This document shows positions 33,102 to 34,631 of a stretch of DNA of 64,000 bases, piece after piece. Below the pieces are notes generated by a model. The model made no database searches and had not been told where the DNA came from. It saw only the letters and a program-made list of their open reading frames with translations. A program made the position numbers and the translations under genes. Origin of the DNA: Eledone cirrhosa (lineage: Eukaryota); NCBI GenBank assembly GCA_964016885.1, contig OZ024742.1:5580001-5644000 (forward strand), in the 5' to 3' direction. Within the stretch, counting starts at the first letter, position 1. Every line of letters starts with the position of its first letter.

Positions 33102-33173
<72 letters not shown>

Positions 33174-33215
33174 ATGATATTAAATAAATGGAAACTATAT
33201 TTATAAAACCATATT

Positions 33216-33276
33216 TATTTTATTATATATATTTCAAGGGTATCAAGACACAGGTACGCTTTCATCAGATAAAATA
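33216..33276 (-). ncRNA. Type I hammerhead ribozyme, intact core
   Basis: Minus strand: TATTTTAT CTGATGA(33268-33262) AAGCGTACC-loop-GATACCCTT GAAA TATATA TA ATAAAATA. Perfect 8-bp stem I, predicted cleavage between 33224 and 33223. Confidence 0.85.
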
Positions 33277-34265
33277 CAAAATTTGTTTTATAAATAAAGA
33301 CATACCCATGAAAATCATACCTTATCGGTTGGATAGTCTCTGGATAGTGGAAATATATGAGGGATTTTTCAAACTTATGGGTGAATATGCAAATGAATAT
33401 GTAAATAATTGAAAAACAACTGTTTATTTAAACGACTATGGAGAGAGAGAGAGAAGAGAGAAGAGGAGAAGGATAAAATAGTGCGAGAGAGAGAAGAAAG
33501 AAAAATAGAGAAGATGAATAAAATCTCATATAACGTTAATTTGAGGGAAATATAGTCTAAGTATATATCTTAATAGTACGTGTATTTACGATTATTAGTT
33601 GTTTAAAATTTGTTTATAATATATTTTTCTTCTGTTATAAGTAGATAAATAAATAAATAAATAATTAAATAATTAAATAAATAAATAGATGAGTATATCA
33701 TGTTATAGATAATTATTCTAATGAGTTATGATAGATATTGGTTTTGTATTTTATGTAAATAAATATTAAGTTAAATTAAATTAAATTAACTGAGTTAAGA
33801 AGAATATTTATATTTATGTGATTGAAAATGGGAAGATACGGAAAAAAACTCCGGTTTAATTTATTTATTCGTTAGTGTGAGATTATTTAGTCAAAATAAG
33901 TATAAATGTTGAAGATACATTAAGCCAGAATCAGTTAGTGGTTATAAATCTATTGAAAAATATTGAGTTGAGAAGGTATTGAAAAGAATATTGAAAAAGT
34001 ATTGAAAAAATATTGAAAAATTTGAGAAAATAAAAAAAAATAATAATTTATAAGAGATAAGTAATTTTTATAGAAATAAAAATTAAAGAAATACAAATTA
34101 TTAAAATTAAAATAAAAAAAAACAAGAATTATATACGTATATATTTTATGAAACTTTAAGAAGTGGAATTAGAGCAAATGTTATGGATATTATGATTTAG
34201 AGATATCAATATAAACCAAGTGGATGAGATTGTTATGGAAATAAGTAGAAATATTATAAGTATAA

Positions 34266-34435
34266 TTATAATTTATATATAGTTCTGAATGTTGAATTCT
34301 GGCGATGTCTACAAGAATTAAATAAATTCGTTCTTAGATTAATAGAGTTTTTACATTTAAGTATGAAAAAAATTTCCTCAACACACAATATGCAGAATCT
34401 AGATAAAGCTGTGTTTCGGTACGCGGGTGCTTTGT
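34266..34435 (-). pseudogene. C-terminal fragment of a Penelope-like GIY-YIG endonuclease
   Basis: KAPAYRNTALSRFCILCVEEIFFILKCKNSINLRTNLFNSCRHR fits the A.Y....CxLCxxE..I....N.R.E...CRH C-terminus I recall from invertebrate PLE endonucleases. Confidence 0.72.
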
Positions 34436-34497
34436 ATTTTATCTGAGGAAAGCGTACCAATGTGTTTTGGTACCCTTGAAATATATATAATGAAATA
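34435..34497 (+). ncRNA. Type I hammerhead ribozyme, intact core
   Basis: TATTTTAT CTGAGGA(34443-34449) AAGCGTACC-loop-GGTACCCTT GAAA(34478) TATATA TA ATGAAATA. Predicted AUA cleavage after 34489. Confidence 0.87.
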
Positions 34498-34631
34498 AAT
34501 ATGGTTTTATAAATATAGTTTCTATTTATTTAATATCATTGAATATTAACTCCAGTAATCTGTTGAGTGTTCTGAATCAGTTATAAACATTTATATTTGT
34601 CGGACTTCAAACAAATTAAATACCCCTTCTA

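What the first reader, a model, noticed from the sequence alone, without database searches (positions are those of the whole stretch)
33172..34541. Penelope-like remnant linking the AT-rich hammerhead family to a GIY-YIG-encoding element
Seen: on the minus strand an inverted pLTR copy (34541-34431) joins directly into KAPAY...CILCVEE...CRHR, followed by ~1 kb of AT-rich UTR and the sense pLTR with its hammerhead (33276-33216). The two ribozyme copies differ at N7 (U versus G), in loop II and at single stem positions, while core and pairing are kept. The 3741-3837 hammerhead shares the TTTTAT-CTGANGA...TTGAAATA..TATAAT frame. Established: 5'-truncated PLEs often carry an inverted pLTR at the truncation point. 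Inference: this identifies the likely driver of at least one ribozyme family, possibly a Naiad-like clade.
Basis: partly seen in the sequence, partly recalled or inferred. Interest (0 to 1): 0.7.

Follow-up and report, generated by a model that had tools for sequence, protein, structure and literature searches.

The report
Truncated Hydra-clade Penelope with paired ends
This is a cut-short copy of an abundant jumping gene of the already described Hydra group of Penelope-like elements (not the Naiad group); its two outward-facing arms stop at two different fixed points, as in nearly all two-armed copies checked, which likely means the enzyme starts copying at two signals on its RNA.

Summary
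The 55-residue peptide is the C-terminus of a GIY-YIG endonuclease. Full-length relatives in the genome read pLTR-ORF-UTR-pLTR and carry this same hammerhead. Their protein is a telomerase-like RT followed by the endonuclease, with the motifs of the Hydra clade (RW[KR], DKT, CxCx5C, terminal CxxC/CxH, no CCHH) and (TA)n targets. Naiad is refuted: wrong domain order, a hammerhead is present, and the TGAs are CpG decay. The 3741-3837 hammerhead belongs to a different Hydra-type family. The family is distinct from the published octopus Hydra-1_Obim. The shared hammerhead frame has 63,233 genomic matches. Copies end at two fixed sites 92 nt apart, each 7-8 nt before a small hairpin. Two-armed insertions use one of each (33 of 33; 8 of 8 in an independent sample). 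This sharpens the known 'tail at one end' and fits double priming at a two-strand cut (inferred). The scan already reported Hydra-type ends, two fixed ends and the hairpins on other DNA of this genome. Verdict: new member of a known kind.

The parts
34431..34633 (+). Inverted arm: pLTR with hammerhead plus the 92-nt tail, ending at the distal fixed site S2
   Evidence: Aligns over 213 nt to the upstream pLTR-leader of full-length copy L037; coordinates
34435..34497 (+). Type I hammerhead motif of the inverted arm (N7 = G; predicted cut after 34489)
   Evidence: Descriptor scan; coordinates
34549..34570 (+). First bulged hairpin (ACTC...GAGTG), 7 nt behind the proximal site S1 (34541); the second hairpin lies beyond S2 and is not in this copy
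34634..34677 (.). (TA)n target half at the S2 end
34431..34434 (.). Inversion junction, 4-nt overlap between the inverted pLTR start and the ORF remnant
   Evidence: ORF context compared with L021, L033, L037
34266..34433 (-). Last 55 codons and stop of the RT-EN ORF: C-terminal part of a GIY-YIG endonuclease with CxxC, conserved Glu and Asn, CxH
33284..34265 (-). AT-rich 3' UTR (982 nt, 21.8% GC)
   Evidence: present behind the ORF in relatives
33216..33276 (-). Type I hammerhead motif of the sense pLTR (N7 = U; palindromic helix III; predicted cut after 33224)
33172..33283 (-). Sense pLTR, ending at the proximal fixed site S1 (33172)
33107..33168 (.). (TA)n target half at the S1 end
33056..33106 (-). 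Duplicate of the last 51 nt of the pLTR between TA runs; likely slippage between helix III and the TA run
   Evidence: 116-nt tandem, 2 copies, 98%; such TA-led ends are rare, 34 distinct places against 2,985 exact helix-III-intact matches
3722..4020 (-). End of a different Hydra-type family, with the 3741-3837 hammerhead (same frame, different helix II)
   Evidence: 5 of 19 other loci have a Hydra-type endonuclease C-terminus upstream in the same orientation

Best explanation
The stretch is a 5'-truncated copy of an abundant Hydra-clade Penelope-like retroelement, sitting in a (TA)n run as two outward-facing arms that end at two different fixed sites, and it was likely made by the element's own RT-endonuclease priming twice on its RNA. 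Shown: the full element is pLTR(hammerhead)-leader-ORF (about 740 aa, telomerase-like RT, then GIY-YIG)-UTR-pLTR, 3.4-3.9 kb. Copies end at S1 or S2, 92 nt apart in the leader. Each site lies 7-8 nt before a bulged hairpin and is followed in the element by AT-rich letters that match (TA)n. Two-armed insertions use one site each. Inferred: the endonuclease cuts both strands of a TA run; each freed 3' end pairs with the RNA at one of the two sites and is extended; the two cDNAs stop at variable points and are joined, often over a few shared letters (four here). The identity as a Hydra-clade remnant is about 0.93 likely; the double-priming mechanism about 0.6. The hammerhead is a passenger of the pLTR and is predicted to cut only as a dimer or with protein help; its role was not tested.
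For: Peptide search: 20,684 first-look candidates, 150 scored, all 150 at 78-100% identity. Full-length pLTR-ORF-UTR-pLTR copies L037, L045, L057 and sister-family copies with open 748-755-codon frames. Model of the sister protein: pLDDT 90.5, best matches TERT (Z 17.6, rmsd 4.2 over 301). Model of its last 146 residues: best match I-TevI GIY-YIG, Z 9.7, rmsd 2.1 over 88, next T4 EndoII and UvrC; the window peptide aligns to this part at 60%. Motifs in 102 aligned proteins: RW[KR] 94, DK[TS] 102, CxCx5C 86, CxxC..E 96, CxH 94, as defined for Hydra in PMC8557442 section 11. TA run after 74 of 90 sense ends. Ends: 30 of 32 discordant; by alignment 37 of 38, and 33 of 33 after dropping five rows that were self-matches of an internal palindrome; 8 of 8 classifiable pairs of 9 among the first 30 frame matches in chromosome order, across three or more families. 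The inverted arm holds 92 nt that the sense arm lacks, so it was not copied from the sense arm. Arms of one insertion are more alike than arms of different insertions (median 96.3% versus 92.3%, 19 loci, p = 2e-4). Twin hairpins in both families; 0 in 1,000 shuffles. In vitro, a Poseidon PLE cuts and extends both strands and starts inside its RNA at two sites (PMC11167929).
Against: No intact copy of the window's own family was seen among the loci read (longest frames 689 and 743 codons, both with a changed catalytic motif), so enzyme features come from a sister family 74% identical in DNA. Units are longer than the '<3 kb' given for Hydra. Published Hydra proteins were not placed in my tree. 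More than half of the 109 loci show no inverted arm at all (56 of 109 without a call), so double priming is not obligatory or the second arm is often lost. The window's own two arms are only 92% alike over 114 nt (rank 59 of 90). Six of 107 loci show another, LINE-1-like inversion geometry. The 109 loci were picked from the best-scoring hits, not at random. Nothing here shows priming, cutting or transcription directly.
Confidence: 0.8

Rival explanations
1. Same element, but the inverted arm comes from self-priming or fold-back on an antisense template, or from a DNA-level inverted duplication after insertion, not from two primers at a double-strand cut.
For: Proposed for Adineta PLEs with palindromic junctions (PMC3846280, passages). 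Arms of one insertion are more alike than average, which copying from each other would also give.
Against: The junction here joins the pLTR start to the ORF interior and is no mirror. The inverted arm has 92 nt absent from the sense arm. Fold-back does not predict that the two ends always use different sites, in either order (29 and 4 after cleaning).
Confidence: 0.2
2. The S1/S2 difference is made after synthesis: an integration intermediate with two equal arms is resolved by staggered endonuclease cuts that leave the tail on one side only.
For: PMC8557442 suggests that the tail results from endonuclease-mediated resolution. It would give exactly one tailed end per insertion.
Against: PMC11167929 maps the tail borders to RT start sites in vitro. 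Both ends abut (TA)n directly and each sits at a fixed distance from a like hairpin, which suits two like recognition events; a DNA hairpin cut signal is not excluded.
Confidence: 0.17
3. One reading: a Naiad-like element, perhaps a selenoprotein.
For: (TA)n targets and inverted pLTRs also occur in Naiads. Many peptide hits hold one TGA.
Against: The endonuclease is C-terminal; a canonical hammerhead is present; CCHH is absent. The TGA sits at an Arg CGA codon (18 TGA, with 7 CAA from the other strand's CpG) and only 3 times at a Cys codon; seven sister-family frames have no stop.
Confidence: 0.02
4. The hammerhead arms are a non-autonomous retrozyme that happened to land at both ends of an unrelated ORF fragment.
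For: Short ORF-less fold-backs with the same frame are very common; retrozymes are held to be PLE derivatives (bioRxiv 10.64898/2026.07.22.740005, first part).
Against: The pLTR follows the same UTR about 1.0-1.4 kb behind the peptide in most loci (93 of 109 with a sense end) and runs on through the leader into the start codon in full-length copies.
Confidence: 0.01

Closest known systems
Hydra-clade C-terminal-EN Penelope-like elements (Craig et al. 2021, PMC8557442), including Hydra-1_Obim of Octopus bimaculoides
   Same: Single ORF with RT then GIY-YIG; RW[KR], DKT, CxCx5C linker, terminal CxxC and CxH, no CCHH; canonical hammerhead near the 3' end; (TA)n targets.
   Different: A separate family: by eye its N-terminus and hammerhead differ from the Hydra-1_Obim rows of the supplement (no identity was computed). 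Units are 3.4-3.9 kb, with a UTR of 1 kb or more, against 2.5 kb. It has clear pLTRs (Hydra-1_Obim is listed as 'no pLTR'). The tail is 92 nt, not 30-40.
Complex PLE insertions: inverted 5'-truncated pLTR with a one-sided tail (PMC3846280; PMC8557442 Fig. 2 legend)
   Same: Outward-facing arms; the extension is present at one end only.
   Different: The papers say 'often' or 'optionally' at one end; here it is near-absolute in two-armed copies (33 of 33; 8 of 8), works in both orders, and each end has its own hairpin.
Poseidon_Ac (PAc) of Anolis, the only PLE active in vitro (PMC11167929)
   Same: AT-rich targets, two internal RT start sites that bound the tail, both strands cut and extended, hammerhead in the pLTR.
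   Different: Other clade. Its start sites lie 111-118 nt inside the ORF and close together; here they lie in the untranslated leader, 92 nt apart. Its hammerhead overlaps the start codon.
Minimal type I hammerheads of metazoan PLEs (Cervera and de la Pena 2014, PMC4209133)
   Same: Core CUGANGA/GAAA, long helix II, short palindromic helix III that suits a dimer.
   Different: Helix III is a 4-bp-per-half palindrome kept by double changes across families (ATATATAT, ATACGTAT, ATGCGCAT; 115 of 130 perfect palindromes). Helix II has a fixed C.C mismatch in this family.
Naiad PLEs (PMC8557442)
   Same: (TA)n preference; tandem and inverted pLTR structures.
   Different: N-terminal endonuclease with CCHH, no canonical hammerhead, selenocysteine in some; none of this holds here.

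Membership tests
Hydra-clade PLE | Single ORF, RT followed by a C-terminal GIY-YIG endonuclease | tested here: met
   Open 742-aa frame; residues 1-480 match TERT; last 146 residues match I-TevI, Z 9.7, rmsd 2.1 over 88. Tested on the sister family and on broken copies of the window's family.
Hydra-clade PLE | RWK motif near the N-terminus | tested here: met
   RWR in both families; RW[KR] in 94 of 102 aligned proteins.
Hydra-clade PLE | DKG changed to DKT | tested here: met
   SDKT at 117-120; DK[TS] in 102 of 102.
Hydra-clade PLE | Linker CxCX5C | tested here: met
   CNCRIKSNC in the window's family, CNCRDRSKC in the sister; 86 of 102.
Hydra-clade PLE | CCHH motif absent from the endonuclease | tested here: met
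   Only one, unconserved Cys between the two tyrosine motifs (C in 11 of 102, A in 89).
Hydra-clade PLE | [quoted passage not shown] | tested here: met
   Seen in the window peptide itself (CILC..E, N, CRH); 96 and 94 of 102.
Hydra-clade PLE | Canonical hammerhead near the 3' end | tested here: met
   By sequence and pairing only: core intact in 100 of 132 copies; cutting not tested.
Hydra-clade PLE | Insertion into (TA)n | tested here: met
   Both ends in the window; 74 of 90 sense ends.
Hydra-clade PLE | Generally short (<3 kb); a tendency in the paper, not a diagnostic | tested here: not met
   pLTR-to-pLTR 3,434 (L037), 3,450 (L057), 3,654 (L045), 3,867 (L050) nt, due to a long UTR.
Hydra-clade PLE | No IFD in the RT | not tested
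   Not examined.
Hydra-clade PLE | RT groups with published Hydra proteins in a tree | not tested
   The tree (quick search, 60 rows) holds no labelled Hydra, Naiad or Neptune references; it shows only that both families form a clade (SH-aLRT 100) next to Argonauta proteins (86).
Naiad | N-terminal GIY-YIG endonuclease | tested here: not met
   The endonuclease ends the ORF.
Naiad | No canonical hammerhead | tested here: not met
   A canonical motif is in the pLTR.
Naiad | In-frame UGA read as selenocysteine (some members) | tested here: not met
   TGA maps to an Arg CGA codon; 7 of 7 chosen sister frames have no stop. No SECIS search was run.
Penelope/Poseidon, Neptune, Nematis | CCHH motif in a C-terminal endonuclease | tested here: not met
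Type I hammerhead ribozyme | Self-cleavage at the NUH site | not testable with these tools
   Structure only. Rfam gave no hammerhead match in the window at E <= 1; cDNA inner ends do not pile up at the predicted cut.

The most novel reading that the evidence does not exclude
Hydra-clade PLEs integrate by obligate two-site priming: one ribonucleoprotein cuts both strands of a TA run and uses twin leader hairpins to start one cDNA at each site, so that every two-armed insertion gets one short and one long end. This would be a rule-bound integration mechanism unlike LINE target priming, in the closest mobile relatives of telomerase. The near-identical intact sister copies in this genome would make it directly testable.
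Probability: 0.5. Interest if true: 0.65.

Novelty: new member of a known kind. Interest (0 to 1): 0.36.

Why it matters
The locus itself is one decayed copy among thousands. What it gives: (1) it ties a hammerhead frame with more than 63,000 matches in this genome to protein-coding Hydra-clade elements, a clade known from about two dozen families and missed by Pfam; (2) how PLEs make their inverted arms and one-sided tails is called an open question in PMC8557442, and the one-of-each rule for ends plus twin hairpins turns it into a sharp prediction; (3) intact sister copies 98-99% alike supply a natural enzyme and RNA for the assay already set up for a Poseidon element.

Tried and rejected
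Pfam found nothing for the peptide or for the full proteins; a profile search of solved structures gave only a weak retron RT match (E 0.014); Foldseek on the endonuclease model had no match under E 0.001, though GIY-YIG chains ranked first. Rfam listed no hammerhead, only microsatellite-driven miRNA matches. The repeat finder was swamped by the satellite arrays. Expression: no RNA holder listed; laying four contig runs of one study showed only that the family is present. Dimer prediction for residues 1-484 in two copies: no verdict, score 0.00, alignment not used. The idea that the 51-nt duplicate marks a ribozyme-cut RNA 5' end was rejected: of 34 distinct TA-led ends, 23 keep the helix III junction as slippage would, 8 are ambiguous, 2 look like the window's and 1 differs, and the inner ends of 31 inverted arms are spread from -1451 to +96 around the predicted cut. 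My first guess that inverted arms always take S2 was rejected: 4 of 33 are reversed. Dropped rows: L002, L009, L011 (duplicates of larger loci); five palindrome self-matches (L023, L037, L042, L047, L058) and six pairs with one end at neither site; the two concordant rows are L039 (searches show that its inverted arm reaches S2) and L059 (798 nt of other DNA between the arms). About ten of the 132 rows are mis-registered by the pattern and count as not intact. The careful tree did not finish; the quick one is cited. Literature searches listed no paper that counts the two ends per insertion or describes this family; most subscription papers, Repbase and Dfam are outside the library, so the family may already be catalogued.

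Full report
Observation. On the minus strand a 55-codon frame (34433-34269) is followed by a 982-nt UTR of 21.8% GC and a pLTR whose hammerhead lies at 33276-33216; the element stops at 33172 in front of a TA run. Upstream, an inverted copy begins at 34431, sharing four letters with the ORF remnant. The hammerheads are far above chance: 5 in 15.3 kb against 0.02 in shuffles. The two copies differ at N7, in loop II, by a G-U wobble in helix I of the inverted copy, and by one broken helix II pair in the sense copy.

The family. The window lies in a 3.0-Gb animal genome; the nearest named protein relatives are from Argonauta hians (39-42% identity), so the host is likely an octopod (inference). 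The peptide drew 20,684 first-look candidates, of which 150 were scored, all at 78-100% identity. I read 109 loci of this family: the 20 best hits less 3 duplicates, 20 with long open frames, 12 from an N-terminal search and 60 more in rank order. Over the peptide-coding stretch the window is a median 94.6% identical to the other 108. Full-length copies read pLTR-leader-ORF-UTR-pLTR, 3.4-3.7 kb (L037, L045, L057). None of those read was intact. A sister family, 74% identical in DNA, has a like pLTR and open frames of 748-755 codons in the 7 copies chosen for their long frames; five of them are 98.1-99.1% alike.

The protein. Pfam is blind to it. From an alignment with 99 homologues the 742-aa sister protein folds at pLDDT 90.5 and matches telomerase RT best. 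Its last 146 residues, folded alone, match the GIY-YIG domain of I-TevI (Z 9.7, rmsd 2.1 over 88 residues), then T4 EndoII and UvrC. The window peptide is the end of that domain. PMC8557442 section 11 (read whole) defines the Hydra clade by a C-terminal endonuclease without CCHH, RWK, DKT, a CxCX5C linker, terminal CxxC and CxH, a canonical hammerhead and (TA)n targets. All were met; the units are longer than the usual <3 kb. Naiads have the endonuclease in front and lack hammerheads (passages). The TGAs in decayed copies fall on an Arg CGA codon (18 TGA and 7 CAA), the mark of CpG decay. The paper's supplement lists one octopus Hydra family, Hydra-1_Obim (I saw searched passages and part 2 of 59). 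By eye its N-terminus and hammerhead differ from ours; I computed no identity and made no tree with it.

The ribozyme link. The frame spans several families with different helix II. The 3741-3837 motif belongs to one of these: 5 of 19 other loci carry a different Hydra-type endonuclease end upstream. Helix III stays a palindrome through double changes between families (115 of 130 perfect), as expected of the dimer-dependent PLE hammerheads in PMC4209133 (first of 4 parts read). Cutting was not tested.

Two fixed ends. Copies end at S1 or at S2, 92 nt further into the leader (sense ends: 62 S1, 28 S2, 3 other, 16 not called, of 109), mostly against a TA run (74 of 90). Where both arms are present they take different sites: 30 of 32 by motif, 37 of 38 by alignment, 33 of 33 once five self-matches of an internal palindrome are dropped (29 with the tail on the inverted arm, 4 on the sense arm). 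In the first 30 frame matches along one chromosome, chosen without regard to the peptide, 8 of 8 classifiable pairs out of 9 behave the same in three or more families. Arms of one insertion are more alike than arms of different ones, though the window's own short arms are not informative. Following a lead from earlier notes of this scan, I checked the leader: a bulged hairpin starts 7-9 nt behind each site in both families and occurs nowhere else in the unit. A like hairpin is visible at the end of the published Hydra-2_Amil sequence.

Mechanism. Shown: layout, fixed ends, one-of-each rule, hairpins, TA flanks, variable inner junctions (14 of 31 with 1-9 shared letters by BLAST ends). Inferred: both strands of a TA run are cut, each 3' end primes at one site, and the two cDNAs are joined. 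This fits PMC11167929 (parts 1-2 of 4 read), where a Poseidon protein cuts and extends both strands and starts at two internal sites that bound the tail. Rivals are fold-back or antisense self-priming (PMC3846280, passages) and staggered resolution of an intermediate (PMC8557442). Against obligate double priming: about half of the loci show no second arm, and 6 of 107 show a LINE-1-like inversion instead.

Novelty. The clade, its presence in octopus, its hammerheads, TA targets, inverted arms and one-sided tail are all published. A recent repeat annotation of Octopus vulgaris counts 31 recently active Penelope-like families but its main text does not mention Hydra or ribozymes (PMC13282606, passages). 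Five searches listed no per-insertion count of the two ends. The scan's own notes already describe Hydra-type ends, two fixed start points and the hairpins elsewhere in this genome; these are not independent support, and my counts stand on my own calls. Verdict: a new member of a known kind, interest 0.36; the strict end rule is the part worth an experiment.

Noticed in passing
window 20661-about 24440, minus strand: hAT-type DNA transposon inside an (ACC/ATC)-rich satellite: two overlapping frames, 23565-22003 (520 aa, DUF4371) and 22025-20922 (367 aa, hAT dimerisation domain), split by one frameshift.
   Followed up: partly
window 34993 (minus) and 35505 (plus): Two more type I hammerhead motifs of unrelated sequence within 1.1 kb of the finding, each in a short module that ends at a TA run; likely ends of other PLE-type families.
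   Followed up: no
window 33001-33232: 116-nt tandem duplication made of a TA run plus the last 51 nt of the pLTR; 34 distinct TA-led ends of this kind in the genome.
   Followed up: yes
L049-L056 (for example G000:C3:376191500-376200499): Sister family with intact 748-755-codon frames, five copies 98-99% alike: probably recently active.
   Followed up: partly
L010, L020, L086, L087, L095, L135: Inverted piece is the ORF segment just upstream of the truncation point, overlapping it by 8-22 nt in five cases and short of it by 34 nt in one; geometry like LINE-1 twin priming, outer flank not TA.
   Followed up: partly
L022:7844-10000 and L039:8504-9238: Further, more distant Hydra-type families in the same genome.
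   Followed up: partly
window 6648-20661, 24449-29184, 29284-31339, 36427-64000: Very long simple satellites (18-nt ACC/ATC-rich, TAG/TGG, and a 24-nt ACA/GCA array of at least 27 kb) fill most of the window.
   Followed up: no
window 1268-1892 and 3993-4101: Tandem arrays of 59 nt (10 copies) and 42 nt (2.6 copies); the 42-mer borders the second Hydra-type end and is expanded in L062.
   Followed up: no
window 5340-5580, 4970-5062, 760-900, 32760-32880: Short fold-back or hammerhead-like modules between TA or CA runs, seen while reading; not scored by the strict descriptor.
   Followed up: no
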